This document shows positions 1,541-24,007 of a DNA stretch of 32,000 nt, piece by piece. Source of the stretch: Pyrodictium abyssi (lineage in GTDB: Archaea; Thermoproteota; Thermoprotei_A; Sulfolobales; Pyrodictiaceae). Every line of letters begins with the position of its first letter. Position 1 is the stretch's first letter. Made by a program: the position numbers and the translations under genes. The stretch spans positions 750,001 through 782,000 of the forward strand of contig NZ_AP028907.1 of the NCBI RefSeq assembly GCF_036323395.1, in the 5' to 3' direction. The notes beneath the pieces are model-generated. The model was not told where the DNA came from. It made no database searches and saw nothing but the letters and a program-made list of their open reading frames with translations.

Positions 1541-1721
1541 ACGGTGCCGGAGCTTGGGCCGCGGCCTACTCAAGGTCCAGAGGAAGCCCGCCGGCGAGCG
1601 CACCATACTCTACGTGCATCTACCCAAGGAGTGGGTAGACCGCCTAGGACTACGCGAGGGAGACTACGTGGAATGGGAGATCGACGGCCGGGGCCGGCTG
1701 GTCTTGAAGAAGCTGCGGTGA
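1524..1721 (+). CDS. AbrB/SpoVT-like swapped-hairpin DNA-binding protein (true start probably the in-frame TTG at 1554)
   Basis: The track ORF C-terminal part ILYVHLPKEWVDRLGLREGDYVEWEIDGRGRLVLKK fits the AbrB/MazE-type pattern: hydrophobic strand, P, LGL, GD, short strands. The first 10 codons overlap the palindromic operator-like repeat. Confidence 0.55.
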   Translation: MYTVYTRCRSLGRGLLKVQRKPAGERTILYVHLPKEWVDRLGLREGDYVEWEIDGRGRLVLKKLR

Positions 1722-1798
1722 GCTCACCCGCAGTGTATACCGAAAGTTTTCGGGTCTACGCGCGGGAAGGTGGACGTAGACTAGGTAGACCGGTCCAC

Positions 1799-2281
1799 CT
1801 AGTGGAGTAGCCGTGGCAGTATCTTGGCTATCTTCTCCCAGTCGCGTAGACTCATTACGGTTTCAACTCTGCTGCCTGGCCCCCAGATCGGCAGCTCCTC
1901 GGGGGTTATCTCGCGCAGCAGAGCGCCCGGCATGAGTAGGATCACGCGCGGATACACGGAGCCTATAGGCTCGTTTACGCGGTCTACCCCGGCTTCGAAA
2001 AGGGCCACGTAGATGGCTACGCGCCCGTCTACGAGCGCATAGCCGTAGGCCCCTTTCCGTCCGCACATAATACCCGCAGCCGGGGCCACATGCTCGGCTA
2101 TGCAGCACGCCAGGCGGTCTACATTGACCCTGTACTCGGAGGGCCTAAGCTCCAGCTCCTCTAGGACACCGTGCTCGACCAGGGACGGCAGCATCTTAGC
2201 CACTTTCCCCGGGATCGTAGGGACGCCCGGGACTCCGTCTAGGAGCCCTAGAAGCTCCCTCAGCTCCTCGACGCTGCACAC
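1799..2281 (-). CDS. hypothetical protein
   Basis: Track ORF of 160 aa with balanced composition. It lies downstream of, and on the same strand as, the integrase-like gene. Confidence 0.55.
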   Translation of the reverse strand: MCSVEELRELLGLLDGVPGVPTIPGKVAKMLPSLVEHGVLEELELRPSEYRVNVDRLACCIAEHVAPAAGIMCGRKGAYGYALVDGRVAIYVALFEAGVDRVNEPIGSVYPRVILLMPGALLREITPEELPIWGPGSRVETVMSLRDWEKIAKILPRLLH

Positions 2282-2289
2282 CCTCCACC

Positions 2290-2307
2290 ACCAGGCCGCG
2301 GCCTGGT
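2290..2307. repeat. 18-bp perfect palindrome ACCAGGCCGCGGCCTGGT (extended copy of the element-wide GGCCGCGGCC motif), intergenic
   Basis: Read directly from the sequence. It lies between the integrase-like ORF stop (2335) and the next ORF start (2281). Confidence 0.9.
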
Positions 2308-2334
2308 TTGGTTAGCTGGTGCACAGGCAAAGGT

Positions 2335-3351
2335 TCACTGCTCCTCTAACAGGAGGCTTCGAGGCGCTACGTTCTCCTCGAGCCAGCGGGCGAATCGGTG
2401 GTACTCCATTTTGACCAGGTCCTCTAGGCTGATGTAGTTCTCCTCGGTCGTCTTTGTCTTCACGGCGCTGGGGATCTGGATGAGCTCGGCGCCTGGGTCG
2501 TGGCCGCCTACGTGGGCCGCGGCCTGGGGTCCCAGCATCCTCGCTATATGGTGCAGAGAGAACTTCCGGATGTACTTCGGCGCGGGCGCTCCCTTGCCTG
2601 CCGCGTGTTTTGCTAGCTTGTCCCGGCGCGGCGGCCTGTAGCCCTGCTCCACGGCCTTGTTTACCGCCTCGTAGAGCCACCCCGGCATGTAGAAGCCGTA
2701 GACATGTTTATGGCTCTGCCTCTTGCTCTTCGACTGTATGCACCATCTGCGGAACAGCTCGTAGTCGGGCTCCGGGAGGGGGTCGCTTCCCCCGCCCTGT
2801 TCCTCGAGGAACCGCAGATAGTTCCTAAGCGCCAGGACGTGCCACTTATTCAGCTTCATGGTGTATAGGTCCTCTCTCCGAAGCGGCCAGCGGAACTTCC
2901 GGAGATACGATACGTACGTGCCGCAGGTCCTCTCCGGGTTCTTCTCCGGCCAGCCCGGGGGAGCCACTATGCGCAGACAGCCGCCGGCTATAGGCTCGGT
3001 TCGCACTGCTACGCTCCCCCAGTCCCCCAGCAGCCGCAGCACATGCTCCGGCCGGGCAGCCGTGTACAAGAGCACGTAGTAGACGAGGCGATAGCGGGGC
3101 CTAAGCCTGGGAAGACTGGTCCGCACCTGCTCCACCGGAGGGACGTAGCGGTCCTCCCCGCTCTCCGGCACACGCAACGCCTCCATCCTCCTCCACGCCT
3201 CGAGGCTTCCTCCCCAGGCCGCGGCCTGGGGCAGGGACTCGAGGACCACCGGGATCGCTGTACCGTCCTCGAGCACTATCGCGTACCTGCCGTCGGCGAG
3301 CTGGATGAGTCTGCCTAGTTTGGGCTTAGTCTCCAATATGAGCACCCACAT
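2335..3351 (-). CDS. int: tyrosine-recombinase-like integrase
   Basis: 338-aa track ORF near attL. The C-terminal region KYIRKFSLHHIARMLG...AHVGGHDPG...EENYISL resembles box II (R, H/G-H, catalytic Y) of archaeal integrases. TAARPEHVLRL is a possible box I Arg. Assignment is by motif only. Confidence 0.65.
   Translation of the reverse strand: MWVLILETKPKLGRLIQLADGRYAIVLEDGTAIPVVLESLPQAAAWGGSLEAWRRMEALRVPESGEDRYVPPVEQVRTSLPRLRPRYRLVYYVLLYTAARPEHVLRLLGDWGSVAVRTEPIAGGCLRIVAPPGWPEKNPERTCGTYVSYLRKFRWPLRREDLYTMKLNKWHVLALRNYLRFLEEQGGGSDPLPEPDYELFRRWCIQSKSKRQSHKHVYGFYMPGWLYEAVNKAVEQGYRPPRRDKLAKHAAGKGAPAPKYIRKFSLHHIARMLGPQAAAHVGGHDPGAELIQIPSAVKTKTTEENYISLEDLVKMEYHRFARWLEENVAPRSLLLEEQ
3212..3231. repeat. 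20-bp perfect palindrome CCCCAGGCCGCGGCCTGGGG inside the integrase-like ORF
   Basis: Read directly from the sequence. It encodes PQAAAWG on the minus strand. Confidence 0.9.
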
Positions 3352-3412
3352 GCTCCCCTATGGCTTGTGTCGCCTGTGGGTCTGGGGCGGGCTCAATGGT
3401 GTTTGAAAATAT

Positions 3413-4411
3413 CTAGCTTGGGGTTAGGCCGAGTTGCTCTAGCATGTCGCGTTTCACGTAGAGGGTTGCATTCTTGACTATGAGCTTGTACTTCTGGTTG
3501 TTCCATGGCCGGATCTCTATGTGTGGGAGAAGGCGCTTGACGAGGTAGAGTGCTGCTCCTAGTTGCTGTTTGAGGGTTGCGTGCTCGGCCGCGGCCTGGG
3601 GCCCTACGTGCAGGCGCTTAACGCGCGCCAGCACCGCCTTCCTCCTTGCTACTTCCTCTTCTATGTCCTCGGGCCGCGTGTAGGCCCGGATCAGCCACTT
3701 ACGCCTCTTCATCAGCGCTACGCCGGTGTACAGGCCGCGCAGTATCTGGCCCGGCTCGTCGCTGGTGACCATCGCCGATATCTCGTCCAGCGCCTGTAGC
3801 GCTGCTGAGCCGAGCATCCGGCCTATGACTCGTAGATCCGAGGGCTCGTCGGGGTAGTCCTTGAATATCTTGAGGACGCTGGTCCTACGCACGCTTATAT
3901 CGACGAGCGTGTACACCTGTGCCGTCCATACTATGTGTGTGTAGCCGGTGAAGCCTAGGTTCTCGAGCCGGTGGCGGACCATGACAAGCGCCTTCGTTTG
4001 CTCGACGTTCTCCTGGCTCATCGCCCGGCGCCCATGCATACCCTCCGCTGCTATGACGTCGTCCATGAAGATGTAGAGGTACCAGTAGTCCTGGAGCGGT
4101 AGATCGGCGACAGCATCCAGGACCACCTGCAGCGGCACCTCCTGCGCGTAGACGTACGCTATCCTATCGTCGTCGACCCCGTGGACGTCAAGCAGATACT
4201 GAACGGCCTCCCCGAGCTTCGCCTCGACGAACGACGTCTTGCCGAAACCCATTGGAGCTATAACCAGCGTCGAGCGGAGGAGCTTCGGCACCCTCCTCAC
4301 AGTCTCCGGCTTCGGTGCCACGTAGCGAAGGAACCGCCGCGTATCCCTCCCCGTCTCCTCGCGGACCTCGACACGAGGGATCTCGACGCCCGTGCTCAGC
4401 ACCGTATACAC
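3413..4411 (-). CDS. P-loop NTPase
   Basis: Walker A is APMGFGKTS and Walker B-like is LYIFMDDV, in a 332-aa track ORF. The subfamily cannot be resolved by eye. Confidence 0.7.
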   Translation of the reverse strand: MYTVLSTGVEIPRVEVREETGRDTRRFLRYVAPKPETVRRVPKLLRSTLVIAPMGFGKTSFVEAKLGEAVQYLLDVHGVDDDRIAYVYAQEVPLQVVLDAVADLPLQDYWYLYIFMDDVIAAEGMHGRRAMSQENVEQTKALVMVRHRLENLGFTGYTHIVWTAQVYTLVDISVRRTSVLKIFKDYPDEPSDLRVIGRMLGSAALQALDEISAMVTSDEPGQILRGLYTGVALMKRRKWLIRAYTRPEDIEEEVARRKAVLARVKRLHVGPQAAAEHATLKQQLGAALYLVKRLLPHIEIRPWNNQKYKLIVKNATLYVKRDMLEQLGLTPS

Positions 4412-4412: not shown

Positions 4413-4784
4413 TCACTCTATAGAGATCGCTGATACCCTGACCAGGAGCCCCTCGAGGTACAATGCCTTGACGATCTGCTCTAGGGCCTGGTTCGCGTCG
4501 TTCCAGGCCGCGGCCAGGATCCCCTTCTCGTTCCCGCCCAGCTTCTCGAACAGCTTCGCTATGGAGTCGCCGAGCGACTCCGGTATAGTCGCCTTCTTTC
4601 CCACCACAGGCCTAGCGAGGTAGTAGAGCTGCCAGATGCAGCCAATGAACGCCTTGAGCCGGTCCCGGGCGGGCATCTTCGGATCTACTATCCAGAACCG
4701 TGTGCCTAGCTCGGCGCAGCGGTCAAGCTGCCGGTGCAGCACCATCAAGTAGTCCATACTCTCCTTGACTACGGACAGGCTCAT
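4413..4784 (-). CDS. hypothetical protein
   Basis: Track ORF of 123 aa. Its start overlaps the upstream stop by 1 nt (TAATG), which indicates operon coupling. Confidence 0.55.
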   Translation of the reverse strand: MSLSVVKESMDYLMVLHRQLDRCAELGTRFWIVDPKMPARDRLKAFIGCIWQLYYLARPVVGKKATIPESLGDSIAKLFEKLGGNEKGILAAAWNDANQALEQIVKALYLEGLLVRVSAISIE

Positions 4785-5554: not shown

Positions 5555-6382
5555 TCACCTCCGGCCGCGGCCTGGGGCTACTAGGAGCAGCCCAAGGAGC
5601 GCGGCAGCCGCAGCACCCGCCAGCGCGTACTTGACGCGCTCATCGCTGAGGCTGATCTCCGCCTTCGGCGTCATCACCGTGATGGTATCCGAGGGCTTGG
5701 CGGGCGTCGGGTCGTCGGGCACCTCTACCCTGTTGTCCTCAAGCCATACAGAGAACTGTACACGGCGGGGGAGCTGGTCCTTCTCATCGCATGGGAGGTC
5801 CCACGTTATGGCTGCTGCTAGCTTCTTACCTTCGGGGAGCTTCTTTGCATCCACGACTAGGCAGCCTTGCCCGCTGCTTAGCGGTATGTAGCTGCCTAGC
5901 GGAAGGGCTGCGGCGAGGGGCACGACGCCGCCGTAGTATGCTACTGCGTCGTTGTAGACCGCTATGAAGAGGAACCGCTGTTCGGTCTGGGCGTGCTCGG
6001 ATGAGTCGTCGCTGGTTATCTTTGCGCATATCTTGAACGTCTTGAAGTATTTCTTTATCGTGCCGCTTTCTGGCGCAATTGGGACGTAGATGACTCGTAT
6101 CCCCTTAGATGAATAGATTGTTTTGCTTACTTGCAGCTCACCGTCTACACGGTATTCGTCTATGACATTGTACCTGCAGTCTGTCACCAGAATCTTGGAG
6201 CTCGTGTCCCACGTTATCTCGACCGTCCTCGCCGCTGCATGCAGGACTGCGGCTGGGAGGACTAGGAGGGCTAGGGCCGCGGCCAGGGCTAGTCTAGACT
6301 TGTGCACGGCTCGGCACCGGTCTAGGTGGGGGCGGCTTCTCGGTGTTAGCCCTGCTCCACGTGAGCACCCCATCGTTTCCAT
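5555..6382 (-). CDS. secreted, C-terminally anchored module protein (signal peptide, ectodomain, KYALAG anchor, GRGRR)
   Basis: Start trimmed to METMG (ATG 6382-6380; a GTG at 6307 is also possible), because the track start at 6565 would overlap the divergent gene. The N-terminal h-region is RLALAAALALLVLPAAVLHAAA. The C-terminus is TPKAEISLSDERVKYALAGAAAAALLGLLLVAPGRGRR. Confidence 0.65.
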   Translation of the reverse strand: METMGCSRGAGLTPRSRPHLDRCRAVHKSRLALAAALALLVLPAAVLHAAARTVEITWDTSSKILVTDCRYNVIDEYRVDGELQVSKTIYSSKGIRVIYVPIAPESGTIKKYFKTFKICAKITSDDSSEHAQTEQRFLFIAVYNDAVAYYGGVVPLAAALPLGSYIPLSSGQGCLVVDAKKLPEGKKLAAAITWDLPCDEKDQLPRRVQFSVWLEDNRVEVPDDPTPAKPSDTITVMTPKAEISLSDERVKYALAGAAAAALLGLLLVAPGRGRR

Positions 6383-6461: not shown

Positions 6462-8300
6462 ATGAATAGGCATAGACTCCTCCCGGCCCTAGGCCTACTA
6501 GCCCTACTCCTCATAGCAGGCATAGCGAGCGCGGAGCAGGAGATGCTGCGCGCCGACCTCGACAAGACGCTCTTCTTCTGGACGCAGAAGGACTACGTGA
6601 GGTTCTGTCGGGATAGAAGCGGTAACCCCAGCTACACAGACAAGGCAATATTGTTCGTGGACGATGAGCTGCCTGCTAGCAGGATAGCTAGCATTCAGCT
6701 GGACCTGCAGAACTACGTGCAGCGTTACGTGAAGGTGGACTTCGACCAGTACGCGGGGAACGAGTATCTCGTCATCCAGTCATCGTCGTACGACCTGGAT
6801 TGGGCTGACAAGTACAGCGGCATACCGCTGCTGGTCCACATAGTGACTGAGGACGGGGAGACGATCCGTGTGCCAGCGTTCATGGGGATGCCAGAGTTCA
6901 ACACTGCTGGCCACTGGTGGTACGGTTGGCGCGTTGGCGAGATTCAGCTAGTCGTCCACCTCCCCGTCGACCCGAGCAGGATAGCAGCGCTCGTAGTGTA
7001 TCCAGACGACAGGGAGGGCGTGGTAAACTCGAACGACTGTGTGGGCTACTGGCAGCTCATGGTGGGCTTCGCCCCCGAGGACGCCATAGTAAATCCGAAC
7101 GTCAACGTGACCGTGAAGCCAGACATCAAGGTGCAGGGCGATAGCAAGCCTGTGGTCATAACCCAGACCGTGAGAGAGGAGCACATGGCCGGCCGGGAGA
7201 ACCCCGGCGACGGCGACGCGAAGCTGAAGTACGCGCTGGCGGGCGCGGTCGGCGGCGCGATGCTCGTGGGGATAATACTGGTGGCTGTGAACGGCCGCGG
7301 CCGGAAGCACGCCATAGTCTTCCTAGCCCTAGGCGCGGCACTGGCACTGGCCGCCCATGCCCACGCCGCCACGATCGACGCCAGCAACGCCCAGGACCTC
7401 CAGCACCTCATAGTCTACTCCAACGCCACGATAACTATCAGCGCTAACGAGACCGGGATCGTAGTCAGCAATCAGGACAACGCTACCGCGCTGGTGGTCC
7501 TCAACCCGCTGTTCGGCTACGTGCTGCGGGGCCTGCACGGCGCGTACCCCGTGCTGGTGAACACCACGGACTACAGCGTGGTGCTCGTGATAGCGAACGA
7601 GACGAGCCTCGACGCCGTGGGGATGCGTAGGGGCGACGGGGCTGCGCTGGGCCTGCTGGTGCCGGCGAACAGCAGCGCTGTGGTCGAGAGCATAGACTAC
7701 GATGCGGATAGCAGCGGCGTGCCCGTCGGCGTCGAGGGGCTTAGCAGCATCAGCCCGCCGCCGGACTACAAGCTGGCCGGGGACAGGTCGGGTTCAGACA
7801 CAGAGCACTGGACGTGGACGATGCCGGTAAGCGGCACGCTATGGCTCGCGTTCAACCCCGGCGAGGGCAGGAAGAGCGACGGCAGCACCGACTACCCGTT
7901 CTTCGGCGAGATACGCTTCGTGGACCCCAACGGCCGCGGCCTGGGCTACATGTTCTGCCACGTCCACGAGTGCCAGCCGGGCAAGTACCAGATACTAACG
8001 TACGTCGCCGGCCCCGGCGAGGTAAAGTTCGACGTGTTCCGCGACAGCAGCGTAACAACCGTGACAATGGGCTGGAGGCTAGTCTGGGCCTACAAGGCCG
8101 ACTCGGGCGACAGCAATAGCCCGCCCGTAGATGGAGGCGGCGACGTGCAGCCGGCGCCGAATCCTAACCCGACGCAGACGGCGCAGCCGGACACCCCCAA
8201 GGCTGAGATCAACATGGACAGCGAGACGACCAAGTACGCGGTAGCCGGCGCCGCGGCCATAGTCTTCCTAGCCATAGTGGTGCTGGCTACGAGGAGGTGA
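6462..8300 (+). CDS. two-module surface protein or polyprotein (SP, ectodomain A, anchor-GRGRK, SP-like, sequon-rich ectodomain B, anchor-RR)
   Basis: 612-aa track ORF. The N-terminal signal peptide is LLPALGLLALLLIAGIASA. The internal junction is KLKYALAGAVGGAMLVGIILVAVNGRGRK-HAIVFLALGAALALAAHAHA-ATID. The C-terminus is TPKAEINMDSETTKYAVAGAAAIVFLAIVVLATRR. The second half has many N-X-S/T sequons. Confidence 0.75.
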   Translation: MNRHRLLPALGLLALLLIAGIASAEQEMLRADLDKTLFFWTQKDYVRFCRDRSGNPSYTDKAILFVDDELPASRIASIQLDLQNYVQRYVKVDFDQYAGNEYLVIQSSSYDLDWADKYSGIPLLVHIVTEDGETIRVPAFMGMPEFNTAGHWWYGWRVGEIQLVVHLPVDPSRIAALVVYPDDREGVVNSNDCVGYWQLMVGFAPEDAIVNPNVNVTVKPDIKVQGDSKPVVITQTVREEHMAGRENPGDGDAKLKYALAGAVGGAMLVGIILVAVNGRGRKHAIVFLALGAALALAAHAHAATIDASNAQDLQHLIVYSNATITISANETGIVVSNQDNATALVVLNPLFGYVLRGLHGAYPVLVNTTDYSVVLVIANETSLDAVGMRRGDGAALGLLVPANSSAVVESIDYDADSSGVPVGVEGLSSISPPPDYKLAGDRSGSDTEHWTWTMPVSGTLWLAFNPGEGRKSDGSTDYPFFGEIRFVDPNGRGLGYMFCHVHECQPGKYQILTYVAGPGEVKFDVFRDSSVTTVTMGWRLVWAYKADSGDSNSPPVDGGGDVQPAPNPNPTQTAQPDTPKAEINMDSETTKYAVAGAAAIVFLAIVVLATRR

Positions 8301-8547: not shown

Positions 8548-10323
8548 ATGCGCTTCCCGGTGCTAGCCGTCGCTGTGTTCCTGGCACTATCGCTGGCCAC
8601 GGCAGCCCAGGCAGCCGAGATAGAGCCCTTGAAGGTGCTGTACGACAACAAGCTGGACAGGAGCGTAGTTGTCGTGGTCTACGCTAACCGGCAGTACGGC
8701 ACCGGCTGGTGGGTCAACGAGCACTACATCGTAACCGCCGCCCACGTAACAGACTACCAGGCCAATGTCCCGGTAACCATCCTCCACGGCGACTACGAGA
8801 GCAGCGGCTACGTGGTGGGGGTGGACAAGGAGCACGACATCGAGGTCATATACGTGGAGCGGCCAATGGCCAATGCAACAATCTTGCCATTGTGTGAACG
8901 TGTGGCCAAGGGCGAAGAAGTGCTGGTCATAGGGTACCCGTTCGAGCTGCTGCAGATACTAGGCGATCTGAGGGCTGCGAGCGCAAACCCGCGCGCGGCG
9001 TACGGCACGATAGCGTGGACCGGCACAGGCGAGAAGTGGTACCTCAGCGAGGTCCAGGCGACGACGGACGAGGGGAACTCTGGCGGGCCGGCAGTAGATC
9101 TCGACACGCACTGCAGCCTAGGGGCCATCACCTTCGCATTGAAGGGCGAGGCCGGCGTCCTATACTATATAACTAATGTATACAGCGTCCGCCGGCTCCT
9201 CGACAAGTACAACGTAACGTACACGGTCAAGCAGAACATGAAGCTGACGGACAGCGACGACTGGCCGTGGAACCAGCACGCCGACTCCAGCAGCCCTAGC
9301 ATCGACAGCGAGAAGCAGCTCTACGCGCTCGGCGGAGCAGCGCTGGCCGCCTCGATAATGGCGGTGCTGCTCGTAGCCTCCGGCCGCGGCCGGAGGGCGG
9401 CAGTTGTCGTCCTGGCCCTAGGCGTGGTTGCGCTAGCGCTGCCGGCCGCGCACGCTGATAGCGGCAATGTGAGCATAGCGGTGATTCCGCTCGCTGTGCG
9501 CGACTCCGGCTACGACCTCGTCCAGTGCCAGCACGTCAAGGTGTCTGTGAAGGCGAAGTACTATGATGGGCCGTTGTTCGGCTTGTTCCAGCCCGCCGAG
9601 GTCCACATAGGCCCCCTCACAGCGAGGATCGACACAGGGAACGCGTACCTGGGGCTCGCCGACCGGGTCTACGCGGTCGTCGAGCTGGACGGCGAGAAGG
9701 TGGCAGAGAAAGAGCTGACAAAGATATGGATAGGTGGGGGCAGCTACGACTTCGGCCTGGTCGTGGACTGCAGCTGGAGCGACGAGCTAAGCTGCAGCGT
9801 CTCGACGGATAAGGGTCTGGTCTGGAGCGGCACCATAAAGCCCAGCCCCTACGGCTACTACGACATATTCTGGGACTACGCAGACGAGCCCACCATAGAC
9901 AGCGAATGGATATGCGACACTGCTACCACCACAGTCACAGGTATAGAGCCAGCACCCGACCGGCCCACCAACCAAGACAACTACAAGAACCAGAACAACG
10001 AGGACGGTCTAGAGAAGTACATGCTCTACGGTGTTGGCGGGCTAGCAGCACTGAGCCTCCTCCTGGCCGCGGCCCGGGGCGGCAGCGTTGTCGTGGTAAG
10101 CGGTGGTGGCAAGAGAGGCATGGTGCAGCTCCTAGGCGTCATAGTGTTGGCCGCGGCCCTGGGAGGAGCCGCACTGGCGTGGAAGCTGCGAGGGCTCTTC
10201 GACGGCGGGGGCTCGGGCGACTCTAGCCTGTTGTTGGCTGGGATCGGGATCCTCGTGGCCATTGTTTTCCTCATGCTCCTGCTCGGTAGGAGATCACAGG
10301 TCATAGTAGTTGAGGGGAGGTGA
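8548..10323 (+). CDS. membrane-anchored trypsin-like (chymotrypsin-fold) serine protease fused to further anchored modules
   Basis: 591-aa track ORF with signal peptide VLAVAVFLALSLATAAQA. The catalytic-triad motifs are in canonical order: YIVTAAHV (His), HDIEVIYV (Asp), GNSGGP (Ser). The internal junction is EKQLYALGGAALAASIMAVLLVASGRGRR-AAVVVLALGVVALALPAAHA-DSGN. A third anchor is LEKYMLYGVGGLAALSLLLAAARGG. Confidence 0.8.
   Translation: MRFPVLAVAVFLALSLATAAQAAEIEPLKVLYDNKLDRSVVVVVYANRQYGTGWWVNEHYIVTAAHVTDYQANVPVTILHGDYESSGYVVGVDKEHDIEVIYVERPMANATILPLCERVAKGEEVLVIGYPFELLQILGDLRAASANPRAAYGTIAWTGTGEKWYLSEVQATTDEGNSGGPAVDLDTHCSLGAITFALKGEAGVLYYITNVYSVRRLLDKYNVTYTVKQNMKLTDSDDWPWNQHADSSSPSIDSEKQLYALGGAALAASIMAVLLVASGRGRRAAVVVLALGVVALALPAAHADSGNVSIAVIPLAVRDSGYDLVQCQHVKVSVKAKYYDGPLFGLFQPAEVHIGPLTARIDTGNAYLGLADRVYAVVELDGEKVAEKELTKIWIGGGSYDFGLVVDCSWSDELSCSVSTDKGLVWSGTIKPSPYGYYDIFWDYADEPTIDSEWICDTATTTVTGIEPAPDRPTNQDNYKNQNNEDGLEKYMLYGVGGLAALSLLLAAARGGSVVVVSGGGKRGMVQLLGVIVLAAALGGAALAWKLRGLFDGGGSGDSSLLLAGIGILVAIVFLMLLLGRRSQVIVVEGR
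9377..9396. repeat. 20-bp perfect palindrome CCTCCGGCCGCGGCCGGAGG at the module junction of the protease ORF
   Basis: Read directly from the sequence. It encodes SGRGRR. Confidence 0.9.
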
Positions 10324-10327: not shown

Positions 10328-10942
10328 ATGGAGCCCATGAGCCTGCTCGCGTACACGGGGAGCTTCGCGGCCCTGGCCGGGGGCATAGCGATAGTGTACT
10401 CCGTGCTCCGGGACCGGGGCTCCAGGCGGGAGCAGATGCTGCGCGAGCACCTGGCAGCCCTAGCCGGCAAGCTGGAGAAGTGCGAGCTGGAGAAGGAGAA
10501 GCAGGCGAGCGTCATAGCGGACCTGGAGCTTGAGAGGAAGAAGCTAGAGGCGCGGCTAGAGGAGGAGAGGAGGAGGCTACAGGCGGAGAAGGAGAAGGCT
10601 CTAGCTGAGCTGGAGCGAAGGCTGCGCCTAGAGTTCGCCAAGGAGCGCTCGAGGCTCCTCGAGGACTGCGAGAAGAGAGTAGAGCAGGTTGCGAGAGTGT
10701 CGAGATCAGCCGCTACACTCTTCGAGGCGGTGAAGAGCGGGAAGATAAGACTAGTCGCGGCAGAGAAGACGTGTGAGGGCATAATCATAGAGCCGGAGAG
10801 GATACTATGCAAGAGGAGCGACGGAACCCTGGAGGCAATATGGCCCGAAGAGTACAGCGTGGGAGAAGCGCTGGTGGTCGAGCCCTCCAGCCAGGCCTCG
10901 GGCCGCGGCCAGGCTAGGAAGTCCAAGGAGCAGGAGCAGTAA
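10328..10942 (+). CDS. N-terminally anchored coiled-coil protein
   Basis: Start set at the ATG following the GGTGAGAGCATG junction (the track TTG at 10310 is less likely). The TM helix is LLAYTGSFAALAGGIAIVYSVL. E/K/R/L heptad-like sequence follows (LEKCELEKEKQASVIADLELERKKLEARLEEERRRLQAEKEK). Confidence 0.6.
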   Translation: MEPMSLLAYTGSFAALAGGIAIVYSVLRDRGSRREQMLREHLAALAGKLEKCELEKEKQASVIADLELERKKLEARLEEERRRLQAEKEKALAELERRLRLEFAKERSRLLEDCEKRVEQVARVSRSAATLFEAVKSGKIRLVAAEKTCEGIIIEPERILCKRSDGTLEAIWPEEYSVGEALVVEPSSQASGRGQARKSKEQEQ

Positions 10943-13646: not shown

Positions 13647-13941
13647 GCCCTGCAGGCCGCGGCCTGGAGCTGGCTCCCCTGGGCTGTTTTCTCGCTGGGG
13701 ATGTTCCTGGTCTGGTCGATCGTCTTCTGGAAGACTGGCTCCTTCAGAAAGTCCACGATAGCGGCGCTGGTAACCGGGAAGTCCTTCGCCGTGGTATACA
13801 AACTAGCGGGCCTGGATAGAGTGGTATATACATTATATATTATACATAGGAGGACCGGCCTCGTCAAAGAGATACACGTTACTATGGTCGAGGTGCTGCT
13901 GCTCAGCTTCCTTGCGAGCCTCCTCGTCGCGTTGTATTGGC

Positions 13942-14160: not shown

Positions 14161-14293
14161 CCTCTACGCCCCCTCTACTCCTGTGGGGAGGTATGCTTTC
14201 TTATGGTCTAGGCTCCACAGGAAGCAGGAGAAATGAAAGGATTAGTTTCGGGCTGGTCTCCTCTGGCTCCGGGCCGCGGCCCGCACCAGAGAG

Positions 14294-16083: not shown

Positions 16084-16557
16084 CTAGGCCTCGATCTCTA
16101 GCTCTATCGCCTGGCCGCTGCTGGTTGGCTGGTGTACGGGGAGGAGGCCTCGGCGCTCGAGGAACTCTATGACTGCTTTGCGTATCACATCGCTGCGGTG
16201 CGGCCAGCCCAGGAGGACTCTGGCGTCGTCGATGCGCTGCAGCAGCCCCTCGCCGAGCTTCACCGTCACCACGCGGAGCGGGCCGCGGCCCGGAGCCGGG
16301 ACGGGCTCCCTCACGCCCACCGGGGGGCGGCGGAACACCGGCAGCGGCTCCTCGTCGACGAGGAGCCGGTAGACCCGGGTCCCGTCCCGCTCCAGCACGG
16401 CGAGCCCCCGCTCCGCCATCTCGGCCAGGAGCTGGCCGGCCCTCCAAGCCGGCAGCCCCATCAGCCGCGCCAACAGCCGCGCGTTGACGTACCGCAGCCC
16501 GAGACGCGCAAGCAGCCGCGCCAGCTCCTCCAGGCCCAGGCACACCCGGCTAGCCAT
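16084..16557 (-). CDS. transcription regulator, winged-helix N-domain plus ribbon-helix-helix C-domain
   Basis: The wHTH-like part is LARLMGLPAWRAGQLLAEMAERGLAVLERDGTRVYRL. The RHH (CopG/Arc-like) part is RVVTVKLGEGLLQRIDDARVLLGWPHRSDVIRKAVIEFLERRG. Confidence 0.6.
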   Translation of the reverse strand: MASRVCLGLEELARLLARLGLRYVNARLLARLMGLPAWRAGQLLAEMAERGLAVLERDGTRVYRLLVDEEPLPVFRRPPVGVREPVPAPGRGPLRVVTVKLGEGLLQRIDDARVLLGWPHRSDVIRKAVIEFLERRGLLPVHQPTSSGQAIELEIEA

Positions 16558-16837
16558 GCACCGCCACCTCCGGCCGCGGCCTGGAGAGTAGTATCGGCCG
16601 CTGTGCCTCCAGCTCCCGCTTGAGCAGCTCGATCCTCGCCGCGACCAGCTCCCGGTCAGCGACGGTGTCCACGTCGTCGAGCTGCGGCCTGCCTAGGCGG
16701 TGGCCGCAGCGGGGGCATAGGCCGCCGAACCACGACGCTATCTCTGAGGGCGTCGGCAGCCCGTAGCTGCTCTGCCCCATCCTCCAGTGCACGTACAGCA
16801 CATAGCCGCACTCCCTGCAGCGGTAGACGACTACCAT
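16550..16837 (-). CDS. zinc-ribbon protein
   Basis: Start trimmed to MVVVYRCRECGYVLYV...LCPRCGHRL (CxxC...CxxC). ATG at 16837 overlaps the upstream stop (ATGGTAG). The longer track N-terminus is an R/G/A-rich alternative frame. Confidence 0.5.
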   Translation of the reverse strand: MVVVYRCRECGYVLYVHWRMGQSSYGLPTPSEIASWFGGLCPRCGHRLGRPQLDDVDTVADRELVAARIELLKRELEAQRPILLSRPRPEVAVHG

Positions 16838-18350: not shown

Positions 18351-18899
18351 CTAGGCCGTCGCCTTGGCGGTCTTTGGTGGGAGTGCGCTGGGCAGCTCGG
18401 GGAACCAGTCCTTCATGCGCTGCTCCGCCGCCTTGGCCGCCTCCATTAGCAGCTCCATCGCCTTCTTGCCGAAGTCGCCCAGCTCTATGCCGGCCACATG
18501 CTCCTCGAGCATGTCGCGGACCTCGTCTAGGGCTAGGAGCAGCTCGGGGTCGCCGACCACCGTGAGGTGCCTGCGGATCTCCGCCAGCAGGGCCGCGGCC
18601 GGCGCCAGGCCTAGCCTCTGGTCGCCCCCGTTCACCCAGAGCAGCGTCTCCAGCCGCAGCACGACCCGCTCGAGAGCGTACCTGGCTGCCAGGAGGGCCT
18701 TACACCACCTTCGTAGCTCGGCTATCTCCGCCGCGATGCCCGCCATACGGATGCTGTCGCGCTCCTCGAACGCCTCCATGTAGCGGTCGAACAGCACCTC
18801 ATCCCGATGCTGGATCCTTTCCACTATGCTGTCTATCCTGTTGATCTGGACGCGTAGCCTGTAGATAGCCATGGCTAGACTACGACCAGCCGGCACCAC
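18351..18899 (-). CDS. ESCRT-III (CdvB/Snf7)-like protein (alternative ATG start at 18872)
   Basis: The layout matches what I recall of archaeal CdvB proteins. There is an N-terminal helical hairpin: YRLRVQINRIDSIVERIQHRDEVLFDRYMEAFEERDSIRMAGIAAEIAELRRWCKALLAARYALERVVLRLETL. This is followed by ...DPELLLALDEVRDMLEE... and LLMEAAKAAEQRMKDWFPELP. This is a motif-level call made without an HMM search. Confidence 0.6.
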   Translation of the reverse strand: MVPAGRSLAMAIYRLRVQINRIDSIVERIQHRDEVLFDRYMEAFEERDSIRMAGIAAEIAELRRWCKALLAARYALERVVLRLETLLWVNGGDQRLGLAPAAALLAEIRRHLTVVGDPELLLALDEVRDMLEEHVAGIELGDFGKKAMELLMEAAKAAEQRMKDWFPELPSALPPKTAKATA

Positions 18900-18901: not shown

Positions 18902-19150
18902 CTAGGCCACCTCCTCCTCCTTGCCGTCGTCACCCTCGTCGTCCTCGGAGACCCGCACCGCGAGCACGATGTCGTAGACGCCGCTGCCCAGCCTCACGCC
19001 GCGCCACGCCATACTGGTCTCGGCCGCGTCCAGCCTCAGAAGCAGGGCCACCAGAGCCTCCGCGACCTCCCGCACCGTAGCATCCACGCCATCCCGCCTA
19101 CCGGACTCCTCGGGCCGCGGCCACACCTTCACGAAGTCGCGAGCCTCCAT
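18902..19150 (-). CDS. hypothetical protein with acidic tail
   Basis: 82-aa track ORF ending SEDDEGDDGKEEEVA. Confidence 0.45.
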   Translation of the reverse strand: MEARDFVKVWPRPEESGRRDGVDATVREVAEALVALLLRLDAAETSMAWRGVRLGSGVYDIVLAVRVSEDDEGDDGKEEEVA

Positions 19151-19644: not shown

Positions 19645-20661
19645 GTGCGGAGGTTCCGTGTCGAGCTGCCGGAGGGCTGCATGTTTGAGGCGACCGGGGT
19701 TGTTTGCAATGATCCTAGGGCCGCCGAGTCCTTCGTGAGGAGCGCACTGTGGGCCGCGGGGCTCGCGGGGATTGATGCCGAGCTTTGCTCTGGCCGCGGC
19801 CGTGACGTGCCGGAGGCCGCCCTAGACCCAGAGCTGGCCAAGCGGATCCTGGAGAAGGTGGCCCATCTCGAGGACGAGAACGCCAAGCTGAGAGCAGAAC
19901 TAGAGACCTGGCGCGAGGTCGGGAGCAAGGTTCTCTCCAGGATCGAGGAGGCCTTGAGGGAGACGGAACTCGCAGAGGAGGCGGGGGAGCTGGCCCGGGA
20001 GCTGGCGCGGCTCCGAGAGGCCTTGGCCCGCGCCCTCTCCTCCCTGGCCGCGGCCGGGGAGGAGATAGAGAAGTGGCGCAGCGCCTGGCTCTGCTACTAC
20101 GTGACACCGCACGAGGAGCCCCTGGCGTTCAAGAGAGAGTACCCGGATGGGCTGCCGAGGCTCGCCAGGGAGAGGCACAAGGAGCTTGCCCGGAGGGTGA
20201 AGGTTCTCCGGGAGCGCTGGTACCGGGAGCTGTGGGGGCTTCCCCTTGTACGCCTCGGCAAGGTCTACATAGCGTTTAGCGAGGCCGCGGCCCGGAGCTT
20301 CATCCGCAAATACGGCGAGATCTTCGAGCCGATAGTCAAGCAGCTCCGCGGCCTGGGCTACAGGACACAGGCAGCCTGCGAGTGTATACCGATACGCATG
20401 CTCCCCGAGCAGGCAGTAGAGTTCCTCCGGAAGGAGATCGAGGAGACTAGGAGGGAGCTGGCGCTCGCGGAGGCGAAGGTGCTAGAGCATAAGGCCGCGG
20501 CCAGAGGAAGCGCGCTACAACACCAGCTCGACAAGATACGCCGGTTGAGGAAGAGGCTCCAGCAGCTCGAGAGCCTGCTACGCCAGCTACAGCGCAGCCA
20601 GCCCAGCGGGGCCCGAAAGCTTCCGGTACTGGCCGCGGCCAGGGGTGAACCGAGGGCTTAA
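19645..20661 (+). CDS. large coiled-coil protein
   Basis: 338-aa track ORF with a GTG start and long E/A/R/L-rich helices. It carries five exact GGCCGCGGCC copies in-frame. Confidence 0.6.
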   Translation: MRRFRVELPEGCMFEATGVVCNDPRAAESFVRSALWAAGLAGIDAELCSGRGRDVPEAALDPELAKRILEKVAHLEDENAKLRAELETWREVGSKVLSRIEEALRETELAEEAGELARELARLREALARALSSLAAAGEEIEKWRSAWLCYYVTPHEEPLAFKREYPDGLPRLARERHKELARRVKVLRERWYRELWGLPLVRLGKVYIAFSEAAARSFIRKYGEIFEPIVKQLRGLGYRTQAACECIPIRMLPEQAVEFLRKEIEETRRELALAEAKVLEHKAAARGSALQHQLDKIRRLRKRLQQLESLLRQLQRSQPSGARKLPVLAAARGEPRA

Positions 20662-21503: not shown

Positions 21504-21688
21504 TCATCCCGGTTCTAGACGCAGCCGGGAGTATGCACCCACTCCTGCTCATTTTCAATTCTTATACCAGGCCGCGGCCCGGTCTCCTTAACAGCCAGCC
21601 TAACGTATTCTCTAGCAAACTATAGGATTCACTGCAGCCGAAGACTTCTGGCTCAGGCCGCGGCCAGAGGCTATATCTAGCCTCTAGT

Positions 21689-21708
21689 CCCCAGGCCGCG
21701 GCCTGGGG
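21689..21708. repeat. 20-bp perfect palindrome CCCCAGGCCGCGGCCTGGGG (identical to 3212-3231), intergenic
   Basis: Read directly from the sequence. Confidence 0.9.
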
Positions 21709-22233
21709 CGGGTGGTTGCAGCACCCACACCTTCGCATGCTCTGAAGGCAGACTATGACAGGTTCGCATTACGGCAGGGTAAACTGATACACGTAGGTTC
21801 AACCAGACCAGAACCTATGCAGTATACGACCCAGCAGTTAGCCCCGGGCCCTTCTGGATTCGAATGAAAGCTGAGCCTCATCGCCTGCCTGCAGGCTAAT
21901 CAGCAGCTCGGAGTCCATCGATCCTATAGAATATAATTATAGAATTTTCTTTCTCTCATAAGCATCTTAGTATGTAGCATTGCGCTGGAGATGTTCTTTC
22001 CCGGGATTCTTTCCCGGCAGCTCCTCTTCCCGCCTCTTCTGCCTGGGCCGCGGCCCGGAGGCGTGGTTGTGAAGAGGTATTACAGCCATATAGGGCTGTG
22101 TGGCGTATGCGGCTACAGGGGGTGAACGGGACGTGGCGGTTGCGGAGGCTTCTGGGCCACAGGCCCTTGCTAGGAGCCTGGCTGAGGCGCTGGACCGGGC
22201 GCTGCCCTGGAGAGAGCCCAGGAGTACTTCGAG

Positions 22234-22647: not shown

Positions 22648-22703
22648 GTGCTGCTCACGTTTCCCTCCGAAGATGTCGCTCTCCCATGTTCTGCTGCCTG
22701 AAT

Positions 22704-22741: not shown

Positions 22742-22934
22742 CTAGGAATTGAACATGATTTGTAGGCTGCGAGGGAATGATTCAGCACCTTCAGAGCGGA
22801 ATTCCCGCGCGACCTGTCCCCCTGTACAGACTCTCTCCCGCGCGGGGACCCACACAGACCCGTCTGGAGCGAATTCCATCCCATACTACAGATTACATGA
22901 AAGCTATTCTCTCCGAAGGTGTAGAATCTGATGA

Positions 22935-22983
22935 GTCGCTATCAGGTCGCTATGAGGTCGCGTTTCAGTCGCATGCAGGTCGC
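22935..22983 (-). repeat. iteron array in inverted orientation, five (A/G)GTCGC units spaced exactly 11 bp apart
   Basis: GTCGC occurs at 22935, 22946, 22957, 22968 and 22979. Confidence 0.7.
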
Positions 22984-23015
22984 GCTTATATAGGGGTGGT
23001 TCGCAACCCGAGTCA

Positions 23016-23288
23016 ATGCTCAAGGAGGATGTGTCCGACATAGCCCCGGGCCGCGGCCTGGGCGCTGGCCGCGAAGCTCTTAACAGGAGACGTGGGCATA
23101 TCTCCTGTGGGGAGCGTTGGTCTAGGATCGCCGAGGACCAGCAGGGGTTGTGGCCTGTGTGGCTGCGTGTAGTGGTTCTCGGGGAGGCGGTGGTCTCCGC
23201 GTACTTCGCGGGGATAAGCGCGGCCCTGGCCGCGGCCGCGCTGCTGCTCCCACCGCTGCTCATCTGCCGCATCCCCTCGAAGCGGTAG
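23016..23288 (+). CDS. possible small membrane protein (start uncertain)
   Basis: Only the C-terminal half of the track ORF is protein-like and hydrophobic (VVVLGEAVVSAYFAGISAALAAAALLLPPLLI). Confidence 0.25.
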   Translation: MLKEDVSDIAPGRGLGAGREALNRRRGHISCGERWSRIAEDQQGLWPVWLRVVVLGEAVVSAYFAGISAALAAAALLLPPLLICRIPSKR

Positions 23289-23309
23289 GCACAGGAAGGG
23301 TGGTGGCTC

Positions 23310-23528
23310 TTGCCCCGGGCGAGGCTGGCCGTGGTGGTTGGGATTGCGGCTCCGCTGGTGCTCGCCTATCTCGCCGGCGTGGCCGCGATGGAGGCGGCGG
23401 AGGCTGTACTCGGCGGCGATGTGCTGGGCGCAGCTGTGGCAGCCGTCGCCGAGGCGGTGCTGGCCTGTGCGGCCGCCCTCGCACAGGCCAGGCACGCTCT
23501 AGATCCGTCTGCCCCCGGTAGACGCTAG
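23310..23528 (+). CDS. possible small membrane protein
   Basis: 72-aa track ORF with a TTG start and Ala/Val/Leu-rich helices. It converges on, and overlaps by 30 nt, the minus-strand gene 23499-23717. Confidence 0.3.
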   Translation: MPRARLAVVVGIAAPLVLAYLAGVAAMEAAEAVLGGDVLGAAVAAVAEAVLACAAALAQARHALDPSAPGRR

Positions 23529-23717
23529 AACGGCTATAGCTACAAGGATGGGTATTGCGCCGGCACCAGCTATGGCGAGCTTCACGAGCCTCGGATCATG
23601 CGGCCCGCTCAGCGCGACGAGCAGAACAAACACAAGGAATAGCGCAACAGCGGCAAAGACGCCGGCAAACCTACTGAGCCGCCGCAGCAACCTAGCCCCC
23701 CGAAACCAGAGCAGCAT
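23499..23717 (-). CDS. small two-TM membrane protein
   Basis: 72 aa with helices FAGVFAAVALFLVFVLLVAL and AIAGAGAIPILVAIAVLA. It lies directly downstream of the AbrB-like gene. Confidence 0.5.
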   Translation of the reverse strand: MLLWFRGARLLRRLSRFAGVFAAVALFLVFVLLVALSGPHDPRLVKLAIAGAGAIPILVAIAVLASTGGRRI

Positions 23718-23719
23718 GC

Positions 23720-24007
23720 CTAGGCCGGAGCAGCCGCCGGCGCAGCAGCTTTCTTCCTCGGCCTTAGTACCAGGACCTTCTCGCCGCCACGCCTCTCGAC
23801 ACGCAGCTCAAACTCTATATCATCATCTGGGGTTACGCCTAGTTCCTCTAGCGCTCTAACGGGTATGTGCATTAGAGGATAGTAGTAGCGTTTCCTTCCG
23901 CGCTTAACCGTCCTCCAGCTCGCCTTTACCAGCATTACTTCTCCCTGTGTGTCTCTCTGCCGGGTGTTCTGCTTTGAGGCTTGTGCCATGGCCGCGGCCT
24001 GTGCCAA
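23720..24007 (-). CDS. AbrB/SpoVT-like DNA-binding protein
   Basis: YYYPLMHIPVRALEELGVTPDDDIEFELRVERRGGEKVLVLRP fits the swapped-hairpin pattern. The first codons, ATGGCACAGGCCGCGGCCATGGCA, contain the palindrome. The gene lies 37 bp inside attR. Confidence 0.55.
   Translation of the reverse strand: MAQAAAMAQASKQNTRQRDTQGEVMLVKASWRTVKRGRKRYYYPLMHIPVRALEELGVTPDDDIEFELRVERRGGEKVLVLRPRKKAAAPAAAPA

What the first reader, a model, noticed from the sequence alone, without database searches (positions are those of the whole stretch)
1557..23999. Hyper-iterated element-specific palindrome GGCCGCGGCC (at least 33 copies; often extended to 14-20 bp perfect palindromes)
By manual scan, exact GGCCGCGGCC starts at 1557, 2294, 2515, 3217, 3587, 4506, 5563, 6275, 7293, 7932, 9382, 10065, 10149, 10901, 11952, 13655, 14272, 16281, 16572, 18591, 19113, 19792, 20046, 20283, 20493, 20631, 21570, 21656, 21694, 22046, 23049, 23228 and 23990. 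That is roughly one copy per 0.7 kb. Several 9/10 near-copies also exist. The ~9.5 kb of host flank has a single copy (30887, in rpl15). As a rough estimate, with p(G)=p(C) near 0.3 a given all-G/C 10-mer is expected about 6e-6 times per position, or about 0.1 copies in the element. Copies fall in all three codon phases: G-R-G as in NGRGRK/SGRGRR/PGRGP, A-A-A as in PQAAAWG/SLAAAGE, and P-R-P as in WPRPEE/SRPRPE. They occur on genes of both strands and in intergenic DNA, so the constraint acts on the DNA, not on a peptide motif. Flanks are biased towards CCCCA...TGGGG or CCTCC...GGAGG. This gives 18-20 bp perfect palindromes at 2290-2307, 3212-3231, 9377-9396 and 21689-21708. The first and last copies lie within ~160 bp and ~55 bp of the att repeats. 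The motif stacks a SacII-type core (CCGCGG) between two GGCC sites and often two CCWGG sites. This resembles the genome-wide HIP1 palindrome of cyanobacteria or uptake/packaging signal sequences, but it is confined to a mobile element. Possible roles are a recognition site for an element-encoded DNA-binding, condensing or packaging protein; a cruciform or recombination hotspot for module shuffling; or a methylation or self-marking site.
Basis: seen in the sequence. Interest (0 to 1): 0.9.

Follow-up and report, generated by a model that had tools for sequence, protein, structure and literature searches.

The report
Hyper-iterated GC palindrome in archaeal provirus
[quoted passage not shown] Its viral relatives and its host flank lack this excess, which points to an unidentified protein that reads the site all along the element.

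Summary
GGCCGCGGCC occurs 34 times in the window: 33 inside the tRNA-Ser-integrated element (1.46 per kb) and 1 in 9.3 kb of host flank. Dinucleotide shuffles give 0.28, and synonymous-codon shuffles give 1.3 against 22 observed inside genes. The constraint acts on DNA, because copies lie in three codon phases, on both strands and in non-coding stretches. Copies arose by substitution, not insertion. Only about 4 decayed copies exist above background. The full site is CC-N-GGCCGCGGCC-N-GG. Position ±1 is free and the two flanks do not covary, which argues for a two-fold symmetric protein reader and against a hairpin or cruciform. Spacing tends to be more even than random. The host is Pyrodictium abyssi. 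Six related elements, including one at 64% GC, have 0 or 1 copy, so this is a lineage-specific trait. The element encodes no recognisable methyltransferase. The same extended motif is also hyper-iterated (0.5-1.1 per kb) in unrelated phage-like contigs at about 61% GC, and their relatives also lack it. The closest analogues are cyanobacterial HIP1 and the 17-bp dyad repeats of Cluster O mycobacteriophages. The function is unproven, and the whole host chromosome could not be examined.

The parts
1394..1458 (.). attL: displaced copy of the 3' part of tRNA-Ser
   Evidence: Direct repeats D6 and D10 with 24038-24104
24038..24104 (.). attR, inside the tRNA-Ser(GGA) gene 24044-24133(-)
1557..1566 (.). 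motif copy 1; in the AbrB/MazE-like gene 1524-1721(+), Gly-Arg-Gly phase
2294..2303 (.). copy 2; intergenic, followed on the minus strand by GGTGGTGGAGG and the GTG start of 1799-2281(-); 18-bp palindrome 2290-2307
2515..2524 (.). copy 3; integrase gene 2335-3351(-), Pro-Gln-Ala-Ala-Ala
3217..3226 (.). copy 4; integrase gene, Pro-Gln-Ala-Ala-Ala; 20-bp palindrome 3212-3231
3587..3596 (.). copy 5; P-loop ATPase gene 3413-4411(-), in the variable C-terminal linker (GPQAAAEH against GPDDYMEY in the closest homologue, same length)
4506..4515 (.). copy 6; gene 4413-4784(-), GILAAAWN where the L176 homologue has GMLVAVWN (substitution, no indel)
5563..5572 (.). copy 7; followed on the minus strand by GGAGGTGAGGAGG and the GTG start of 5152-5547(-)
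6275..6284 (.). copy 8; ORF 5555-6565(-) (uncertain gene call), Ala-Ala-Ala phase
7293..7302 (.). copy 9; gene 6462-8300(+), Gly-Arg-Gly; part of a 47-nt segment repeated at 9381-9427
7932..7941 (.). copy 10; gene 6462-8300(+), Gly-Arg-Gly
9382..9391 (.). copy 11; C-terminal extension of the trypsin-like protease gene 8548-10323(+), Gly-Arg-Gly; 20-bp palindrome 9377-9396
10065..10074 (.). copy 12; protease C-terminal extension, Ala-Ala-Ala
10149..10158 (.). copy 13; protease C-terminal extension, Ala-Ala-Ala
10901..10910 (.). copy 14; gene 10310-10942(+), Gly-Arg-Gly, near the 3' end
11952..11961 (.). copy 15; gene 10954-12153(+), Ala-Ala-Ala
13655..13664 (.). copy 16; outside my gene set, 9 nt after the stop of 13446-13646(+)
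14272..14281 (.). copy 17; outside my gene set, between 13942-14160(-) and 14294-14461(-)
16281..16290 (.). copy 18; gene 16084-16557(-), which looks winged-helix-like by eye only (Pfam and PHROGs found nothing); Gly-Arg-Gly
16572..16581 (.). copy 19; followed on the minus strand by GGAGGTGG and the ATG of 16084-16557(-)
18591..18600 (.). copy 20; CdvB/ESCRT-III-like gene 18351-18899(-), Ala-Ala-Ala
19113..19122 (.). copy 21; gene 18902-19150(-), the only Pro-Arg-Pro phase copy inside my gene set
19792..19801 (.). copy 22; gene 19645-20661(+), Gly-Arg-Gly
20046..20055 (.). copy 23; gene 19645-20661(+), Ala-Ala-Ala
20283..20292 (.). copy 24; gene 19645-20661(+), Ala-Ala-Ala
20493..20502 (.). 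copy 25; gene 19645-20661(+), Ala-Ala-Ala
20631..20640 (.). copy 26; gene 19645-20661(+), Ala-Ala-Ala, 30 nt before the stop
21570..21579 (.). copy 27; ORF-poor, lower-GC stretch 21.5-23.0 kb
21656..21665 (.). copy 28; ORF-poor stretch
21694..21703 (.). copy 29; ORF-poor stretch; 20-bp palindrome 21689-21708
22046..22055 (.). copy 30; ORF-poor stretch, upstream of ORF 22234-22647(+)
23049..23058 (.). copy 31; region 23013-23495 with uncertain coding on either strand
23228..23237 (.). copy 32; same region
23990..23999 (.). copy 33; directly abuts the ATG of the second, weakly AbrB/MazE-like gene 23720-23989(-), 39 nt from attR

Best explanation
GGCCGCGGCC, in full CC-N-GGCCGCGGCC-N-GG, is a dispersed recognition site read as duplex DNA by a two-fold symmetric (dimeric) sequence-specific protein that acts on this element. 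The copies were created by point substitutions wherever the encoded protein tolerates Ala-Ala-Ala or Gly-Arg-Gly, and in non-coding DNA, and they are kept perfect by selection. They cover the whole element at roughly even intervals of about 0.7 kb. I therefore infer a distance-dependent, element-wide function, such as marking, coating, silencing or condensing the element's DNA, rather than control of individual promoters. This resembles the stoperators and the Cluster O dyad repeats of mycobacteriophages. Shown: the DNA-level constraint, the symmetry with a free ±1 position, origin by substitution, the scarcity of decayed copies, the restriction to the element compared with its flank and its relatives, and a trend towards even spacing.
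For: Enrichment of 100-fold or more survives dinucleotide, synonymous-codon and codon-permutation controls. There are 33 perfect copies against 8 one-mismatch copies, where the background expectation is 3.6-4.4. Half-site flanks: G at +2 in 48 of 66 and at +3 in 40 of 66 half-sites. Position +1 is unconstrained, and there is no left-right covariation beyond the marginal frequencies. Homologues have the same length at motif positions: GPQAAAEH against GPDDYMEY, and LAAAW against LVAVW. In the element 33 of 42 CCGCGG sites are full motifs, against 1 of 8 in the flank. Related elements have few or none: AGV1 0 in 18.2 kb; L176 0 in 12.3 kb; L178 (64% GC) 0 in the element part; L177 1 in 5 kb; L325 and L326 0. 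Spacing has a coefficient of variation of 0.75 against 0.97 for random placement (P about 0.05), and the other motif-rich contigs show the same tendency. Four copies lie 0-15 nt upstream of start codons, one of them abutting the ATG of an AbrB-like gene. In Cluster O phages, invariant dyad repeats (34 copies, 3 one-off variants, about one third inside genes) are likewise attributed to a dimeric DNA-binding protein (PMC4351075).
Against: No binding protein has been identified. Two thirds of the copies lie inside genes, which is costly for simple operators. The same extended motif is hyper-iterated in unrelated phage-like contigs that share no detectable protein with this element. That argues against a reader peculiar to this element, unless it reflects convergence found because I searched for this very sequence. 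The relatives of the element have no equivalent repeat, so the function is not essential to the virus family. The spacing result is only marginally significant for the window alone.
Confidence: 0.4

Rival explanations
1. This is a HIP-type palindrome linked to DNA modification. A methyltransferase, or a restriction-modification-like enzyme, recognises an inner site such as CCGCGG, GCCGCGGC or GGCC. A modification-dependent repair or selection process then creates and maintains the full decamer about once per kb, as Elhai proposed for cyanobacterial HIP1.
For: The density of about 1 per kb, the occurrence in all frames and in non-coding DNA, and the origin by substitution match HIP1 (PMC4390886). 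Four of the 8 one-off variants differ at the first or last base, as reported for HIP1. The motif nests restriction-type palindromes. The same extended motif recurs in unrelated phage-like contigs. One of these regions (L305) encodes a C5 cytosine methyltransferase. In L322 the one-off variants are mostly C-to-T changes at two positions, as expected if those cytosines are methylated. Even spacing fits a distance-limited, site-dependent process.
Against: Pfam, NCBIfam, PHROGs and PADLOC scans of the element's ORFs found no methyltransferase or endonuclease. If the enzyme is the host's, the host flank should show the same bias, but only 1 of its 8 CCGCGG sites is extended. From general knowledge, Crenarchaeota lack MutS/MutL-type methyl-directed repair. 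The HIP1 mechanism itself is unproven.
Confidence: 0.25
2. This is a genome signature of the host, or of a former long-term host. The decamer would be abundant across the whole chromosome. The element merely shares it, and the flank sampled here (conserved ribosomal and SecY genes) is unusually poor in it.
For: Only 9.3 kb of flank could be examined, and it consists mostly of highly conserved genes. That flank still holds one copy, where about 0.08 is expected from its share of the window shuffle mean. The element's codon usage matches the flank (r = 0.89).
Against: If the densities were equal, about 13 copies would be expected in the flank, and 1 was seen. The flank's ratio of extended to plain CCGCGG sites equals that of an unrelated 64%-GC Desulfurococcales contig, L178, with 1 full motif among 23 CCGCGG sites. 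The scan of JGI metagenomes for the 20-mer returned only 22 stretches. None was from a vent archaeon and none indicated a genome with hundreds of sites.
Confidence: 0.12
3. The motif acts as a DNA structure (cruciform or hairpin) or as a recombination hotspot that promotes shuffling of modules between elements.
For: Four copies are perfect palindromes of 18-20 bp. In the L312/L322 comparison two motif copies lie at or in indel regions.
Against: Position ±1 breaks the palindrome in 23 of 33 copies, and flank complementarity equals the expectation from the marginal frequencies. A 10-bp core cannot extrude stably. From general knowledge, hyperthermophile DNA is relaxed or positively supercoiled by reverse gyrase, which disfavours cruciforms. 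Cluster O repeats were also not associated with rearrangements (PMC4351075).
Confidence: 0.05
4. The copies are scars or insertions of a tiny mobile palindromic element (REP- or MITE-like), or a by-product of Ala/Gly/Arg codon bias or poly-alanine tracts.
For: The decamer equals 1.7 units of GGCCGC. Tandem (GCGGCC)n tracts do produce it in some high-GC viral contigs.
Against: Homologues show no added length at motif positions. Copies are single, not tandem. Synonymous-codon shuffles give 1.3 copies against 22 observed. A related element at 64% GC has none.
Confidence: 0.02

Closest known systems
HIP1 (GCGATCGC) and alternate highly iterated palindromes of cyanobacteria (Elhai 2015, PMC4390886)
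   Same: A short GC-rich perfect palindrome at about one copy per kb, about 100-fold over expectation. It occurs in genes in several frames and between genes. It spreads by nucleotide substitution. One-off variants are biased to the outer bases.
   Different: HIP1 is a trait of the whole chromosome and is tied to orphan methyltransferases. Here the density is confined, as far as could be tested, to a 22.6-kb integrated element of an archaeon with no recognisable methyltransferase. The motif is a pure G/C decamer with CC-N / N-GG flanks.
17-bp dyad-symmetric repeats of Cluster O mycobacteriophages (TGTTCGGNNNCCGAACA; PMC4351075)
   Same: More than 30 invariant copies spread through one mobile genome, with very few one-off variants. 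Part of them lie inside genes. They have no orientation and are not tied to promoters. Their function is unknown and a dimeric binding protein is presumed.
   Different: The Cluster O repeats are conserved across all related phages and are mostly intergenic, at about 0.5 per kb. Here the relatives lack the motif, two thirds of the copies are inside genes, the density is 1.5 per kb, and the host is an archaeon.
Stoperators of Cluster A mycobacteriophages (as discussed in PMC4351075, and from general knowledge)
   Same: About 25-35 copies of one short site across a temperate element. The site is bound by the element's own repressor to silence the whole prophage.
   Different: Stoperators are asymmetric, oriented with transcription, and located in short intergenic gaps. 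The motif here is a palindrome and mostly intragenic.
Domain-marking palindromes read by dimeric proteins, such as matS/MatP, SlmA-binding sites, Noc-binding sites and KorB operators of plasmid RK2 (general knowledge)
   Same: Dispersed palindromic sites, in genes or between them, that label one DNA domain or replicon for a dimeric protein.
   Different: Those have far fewer copies per kb. Their reader proteins are known. No ParB/KorB-like gene was found in this element.

Membership tests
Highly iterated palindromes (HIP1 type) | Short perfect palindrome at about 1 per kb, far above expectation | tested here: met
   1.46 per kb; 33 observed against 0.1-0.3 expected
Highly iterated palindromes (HIP1 type) | Present in coding DNA (several frames) and in non-coding DNA, arising by substitution | tested here: met
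Highly iterated palindromes (HIP1 type) | Distributed over the whole host chromosome | tested here: inconclusive
   The 9.3-kb flank has 1 copy against about 13 expected at the element's density.
Highly iterated palindromes (HIP1 type) | A cognate DNA methyltransferase that recognises an inner site | tested here: not met
   None found in the element by Pfam, NCBIfam, PHROGs or PADLOC. Host enzymes could not be examined.
Highly iterated palindromes (HIP1 type) | One-off variants biased to the first and last base | tested here: inconclusive
   4 of 8 variants, against 20% expected; my own estimate gives P about 0.06
Cluster O-type phage dyad repeats | More than 30 invariant dyad-symmetric copies spread over one mobile genome | tested here: met
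Cluster O-type phage dyad repeats | Repeat conserved among related genomes | tested here: not met
   Relatives AGV1, L176, L177, L178, L325 and L326 have 0 or 1 copy and no alternative iterated word
Stoperators (Cluster A mycobacteriophages) | Asymmetric site oriented with transcription, in short intergenic gaps, bound by the prophage repressor | tested here: not met
   The site is a palindrome and 22 of 33 copies lie inside genes. Binding cannot be tested with these tools.
REP / MITE-like mobile palindromes | Extra DNA relative to homologues; extragenic location | tested here: not met
   Same-length alignments at motif positions; mostly intragenic
DNA uptake sequences (DUS/USS) | Non-palindromic 9-12-mer spread over the host genome of a competent species | tested here: not met
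   The motif is a palindrome and rare in the host flank
parS / KorB-type centromere or operator sites | ParB/KorB-family reader encoded nearby; few copies | tested here: not met
   No ParB-like domain found; 33 copies

The most novel reading that the evidence does not exclude
Hyper-iterated palindromes restricted to mobile elements may form a class of their own. The same 16-bp site, CC-N-GGCCGCGGCC-N-GG, has been driven to about one copy per kb independently in two mobile elements. One is an archaeal provirus that lives near 100 °C. The other is an unrelated phage-like element, probably bacterial. The close relatives of both lack the site. This would point to a portable, still unidentified reader or enzyme that mobile elements use to mark their own DNA.
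Probability: 0.3. Interest if true: 0.85.

Novelty: new variant of a known kind. Interest (0 to 1): 0.7.

Why it matters
Highly iterated palindromes have been an open problem since HIP1 was described in cyanobacteria, and their mechanism is still unknown. A case confined to a 22.6-kb integrated element is much easier to test. It offers only about 40 candidate genes, a neighbouring host flank as an internal control, and relatives without the motif. The reader protein or modifying enzyme could be found with a few binding or methylome experiments. It would also be, to my knowledge and in the searches made here, the first such repeat described for an archaeal virus-like element. The unrelated phage-like contigs with the same extended site suggest the phenomenon is wider among mobile elements than recognised.

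Tried and rejected
2. Exact-protein look-ups for the host SecY, the host Cbf5 and the P. abyssi ATPase record found nothing, so no further host DNA could be fetched.
3. The viral-contig scan with the 16-mer gave 54 single chance hits. L011 has 5 copies but no flank consensus and no homology.
4. The paired-motif scan of viral contigs returned tandem (GCGGCC)n tracts or long protein repeats, which are a different phenomenon. L220, from a 2.24-Mb contig, is unrelated to the window.
5. A literature search for the decamer string found only primers and cloning sites. Searches on highly iterated palindromes in archaea found nothing relevant.
6. Rfam found only the tRNA.
7. A PDB sequence search with the ATPase family gave only weak P-loop matches. 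The PDB search with the L305 methyltransferase did not reveal its specificity.
8. The insertion/MITE model was rejected from the alignments.
9. The codon-bias model was rejected from the shuffles.
10. The hairpin model was rejected from the flank covariation test.
11. An association with gene ends (9 of 22 genic copies in the last fifth of the gene) or with start codons (4 copies) is only suggestive.

Full report
**1. Observation**

Dinucleotide-preserving shuffles of the window give a mean of 0.28 and a maximum of 2. The copies lie inside a 22.6-kb segment. This segment is bounded by a direct repeat of the 3' part of a tRNA-Ser(GGA) gene (1394-1458 and 24038-24104; tRNA at 24044-24133, minus strand). 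The segment is 62.5% G+C and the 9.3 kb of flank is 59.4%. With the perfect copies deleted, the background predicts 0.09-0.19 perfect copies and 3.6-4.4 one-mismatch copies. The observed numbers are 33 and 8.

**2. Not a coding artefact**

I called genes from ORFs and their position-specific G+C. These calls are mine and approximate.
- Twenty-two copies lie in 35 putative genes: 12 read Ala-Ala-Ala, 9 read Gly-Arg-Gly and 1 reads Pro-Arg-Pro. The other 11 lie outside this gene set.
- Shuffling synonymous codons while keeping every protein gives 1.34 copies on average (maximum 6 in 2000 trials). Permuting codons gives 0.28.
- The tripeptides themselves are inflated by the motif: Ala-Ala-Ala occurs 25 times against 7 expected, and Gly-Arg-Gly 10 times against 2.9.
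- The shortage of the Pro-Arg-Pro phase shows that protein tolerance filters where a copy can persist.

**3. Anatomy of the site**

Pooling the 66 outward half-flanks gives N at +1, G at +2 (48 of 66), G at +3 (40 of 66) and a weaker G at +4. The full site is therefore CC-N-GGCCGCGGCC-N-GG.
- Left-right complementarity at ±1 to ±6 is no higher than the independent half-site frequencies predict.
- Position ±1 is complementary in 10 of 33 copies, against 8.6 expected.
- This is the signature of a symmetric sequence read twice, not of selection for base pairing.
- In the element 33 of 42 CCGCGG sites are embedded in the full decamer. In the flank 1 of 8 is.
- Four of the 8 one-mismatch variants differ at the first or last base.

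**4. How copies arise**

At motif positions the homologues have the same length.
- The ATPase reads GPQAAAEH where its closest relative reads GPDDYMEY.
- Gene 4413-4784 reads GILAAAWN where the L176 homologue reads GMLVAVWN.
- The three copies in the protease gene lie in a C-terminal extension that the homologues lack.

Copies are thus made by substitution in tolerant positions, not by insertion of a cassette.

**5. Position and spacing**

Spacing has a coefficient of variation of 0.75, against 0.97 for random placement (P about 0.05). Four copies lie 0-15 nt upstream of minus-strand start codons. In three of them a GGAGGTG-like purine run lies in between, and the fourth abuts the ATG of a weakly AbrB/MazE-like gene (Pfam E = 0.039). 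Nine of the 22 genic copies lie in the last fifth of their gene. These positional trends are only suggestive.

**6. Host and relatives**

The element's ATPase and integrase are 100% identical to Pyrodictium abyssi proteins on a 2,224,219-bp contig. The ATPase, the trypsin-like protease and two small genes link the element to Aeropyrum globular virus 1 (AGV1) (bioRxiv 10.1101/2021.04.21.440749). Motif counts in the relatives are as follows:

| Relative | Sequence examined | G+C | Copies |
|---|---|---|---|
| AGV1 | 18.2 kb | 56% | 0 |
| L176 | 12.3 kb | 44% | 0 |
| L178, element part | about 10 kb | 64% | 0 |
| L178, host part | about 8.8 kb | 64% | 1 |
| L177 (63% identical ATPase) | 5 kb | 54% | 1 |
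| L325, L326 (related integrases) | 21 kb each | 49% and 54% | 0 |

None of the relatives examined for this (AGV1, L176, L177, L178, L325 and L326) has another hyper-iterated word. The trait is therefore specific to this lineage and is not explained by G+C content. The element's codon usage matches the host flank (r = 0.89), so the element is not a recent arrival from a very different host.

**7. Candidate readers**

Profile searches of the element's ORFs found the following:
- an integrase;
- a P-loop ATPase;
- a trypsin-like protease;
- a PIN-domain protein (weak match, below Pfam's curated cut-off);
- two AbrB/MazE-like proteins, one at each end of the element (the second is a weak match);
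- a CdvB/ESCRT-III-like protein (E = 6e-32, below the curated cut-off).

They found no methyltransferase, restriction enzyme or ParB-like protein.

**8. The same site elsewhere**

A scan of JGI metagenomes for the 20-mer CCCCAGGCCGCGGCCTGGGG returned 22 stretches. One series of samples contains contigs at about 61% G+C with many copies of the decamer: L312 has 8 in 7.4 kb, L305 has 6 in 13 kb and L315 has 5 in 2.6 kb.

L322 was fetched by protein homology to L312, not by the motif.
- It has 13 copies in 15.6 kb, against 0.13 expected.
- It shows the same N-G-G flank, with G at +2 in 16 of 26 and at +3 in 17 of 26 half-sites.
- Its spacing is also under-dispersed.

These contigs share no detectable protein with the archaeal element. 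Their SNF2 helicase family sits in phage-type genomes with DNA polymerase A, RecT and ArdC genes. Two such relatives, at 59-60% identity, have no copy.

Between L312 and L322 copies are gained or lost by one or two substitutions, while the flanks of conserved copies diverge. L305 encodes a C5 cytosine methyltransferase, but it is not shown to lie on the same replicon. In L322 the one-off variants are mostly C-to-T changes at two cytosine positions.

I searched for this particular sequence, so finding a second carrier is not in itself surprising. The shared flank structure is notable.

**9. Interpretation**

The data establish a DNA-level, two-fold symmetric, substitution-born and strongly maintained site. 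It covers one mobile element and is rare in its flank and in its relatives.
- **Best reading (0.4):** a dispersed recognition site for a dimeric protein acting on the element. It would have an element-wide, distance-dependent role such as marking, coating, silencing or condensation. This resembles the dyad repeats of Cluster O mycobacteriophages and stoperators (PMC4351075).
- **Main rival (0.25):** a HIP-type, modification-linked process (PMC4390886). It fits the density, the substitution dynamics, the outer-base bias and the recurrence in unrelated replicons. It lacks a methyltransferase in the element and a matching bias in the host flank.
- **Host-wide signature (0.12):** this cannot be excluded without the chromosome.
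- **Structural, insertional and codon-bias explanations:** these were tested and are not supported.

**10. Limits**

The key control, motif density along the whole P. abyssi chromosome, is therefore missing. Gene calls are approximate. The spacing and positional statistics are marginal. No experiment bears on binding or methylation.

Noticed in passing
window 22697-22743 and 22933-22983: Two inverted arrays of 4-5 short iterons, GCGAC(C) and (G)GTCGC, spaced about 11 nt apart. They flank a core of about 190 nt in the ORF-poor, lower-GC part of the element. This looks like a replication origin or operator and is distinct from the GGCCGCGGCC motif.
   Followed up: partly
window 18351-18899 (-): The element encodes a 182-aa CdvB/ESCRT-III-like protein. 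NCBIfam CdvB1/B2 matches at E = 6e-32, below the curated cut-off. An ESCRT-III paralogue encoded by a virus-like element could bear on budding or on manipulation of host cell division.
   Followed up: no
window 1524-1721 (+) and 23720-23989 (-): Two AbrB/MazE-like small genes sit at the two ends of the integrated element (the second is a weak match, E = 0.039). In the excised circle they would be divergently transcribed across attP. Integration separates them.
   Followed up: partly
L312, L315, L305, L303, L321, L318 (JGI Ga0302xxx contigs) and L322 (ENA ERZ25039472 contig_23986): Unrelated phage-like contigs at about 61% G+C carry the same decamer at 0.5-1.1 per kb with the same N-G-G flanks. 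Relatives L323 and L324 have none. L305 encodes a C5 cytosine methyltransferase and a Fic protein.
   Followed up: partly
window 1434-24037 (whole element): By a Markov estimate the element strongly avoids CAGCTG (5 observed, 18 expected), GAGCTC (4, 16.5) and CACGTG (1, 9). The host flank does not. This is a pattern typical of restriction avoidance.
   Followed up: no
window 7292-7338 and 9381-9427 (also 8256-8277): A 47-nt segment, 79% identical, is repeated in the two large adjacent genes. It consists of the motif followed by a hydrophobic stretch (GRGRKHAIVFLALG and GRGRRAAVVVLALG). This suggests a duplicated membrane-anchor module.
   Followed up: no
window 8548-10323 (+): The trypsin-like protease is 591 aa, against 248-262 aa in all relatives. 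The extra C-terminal 340 aa hold three motif copies and several hydrophobic segments.
   Followed up: no
window 12996-13439 (+): A PIN-domain (VapC-like) protein is encoded in the middle of the element (Pfam E = 3.7e-4, below the curated cut-off). A possible small partner ORF lies next to it.
   Followed up: no
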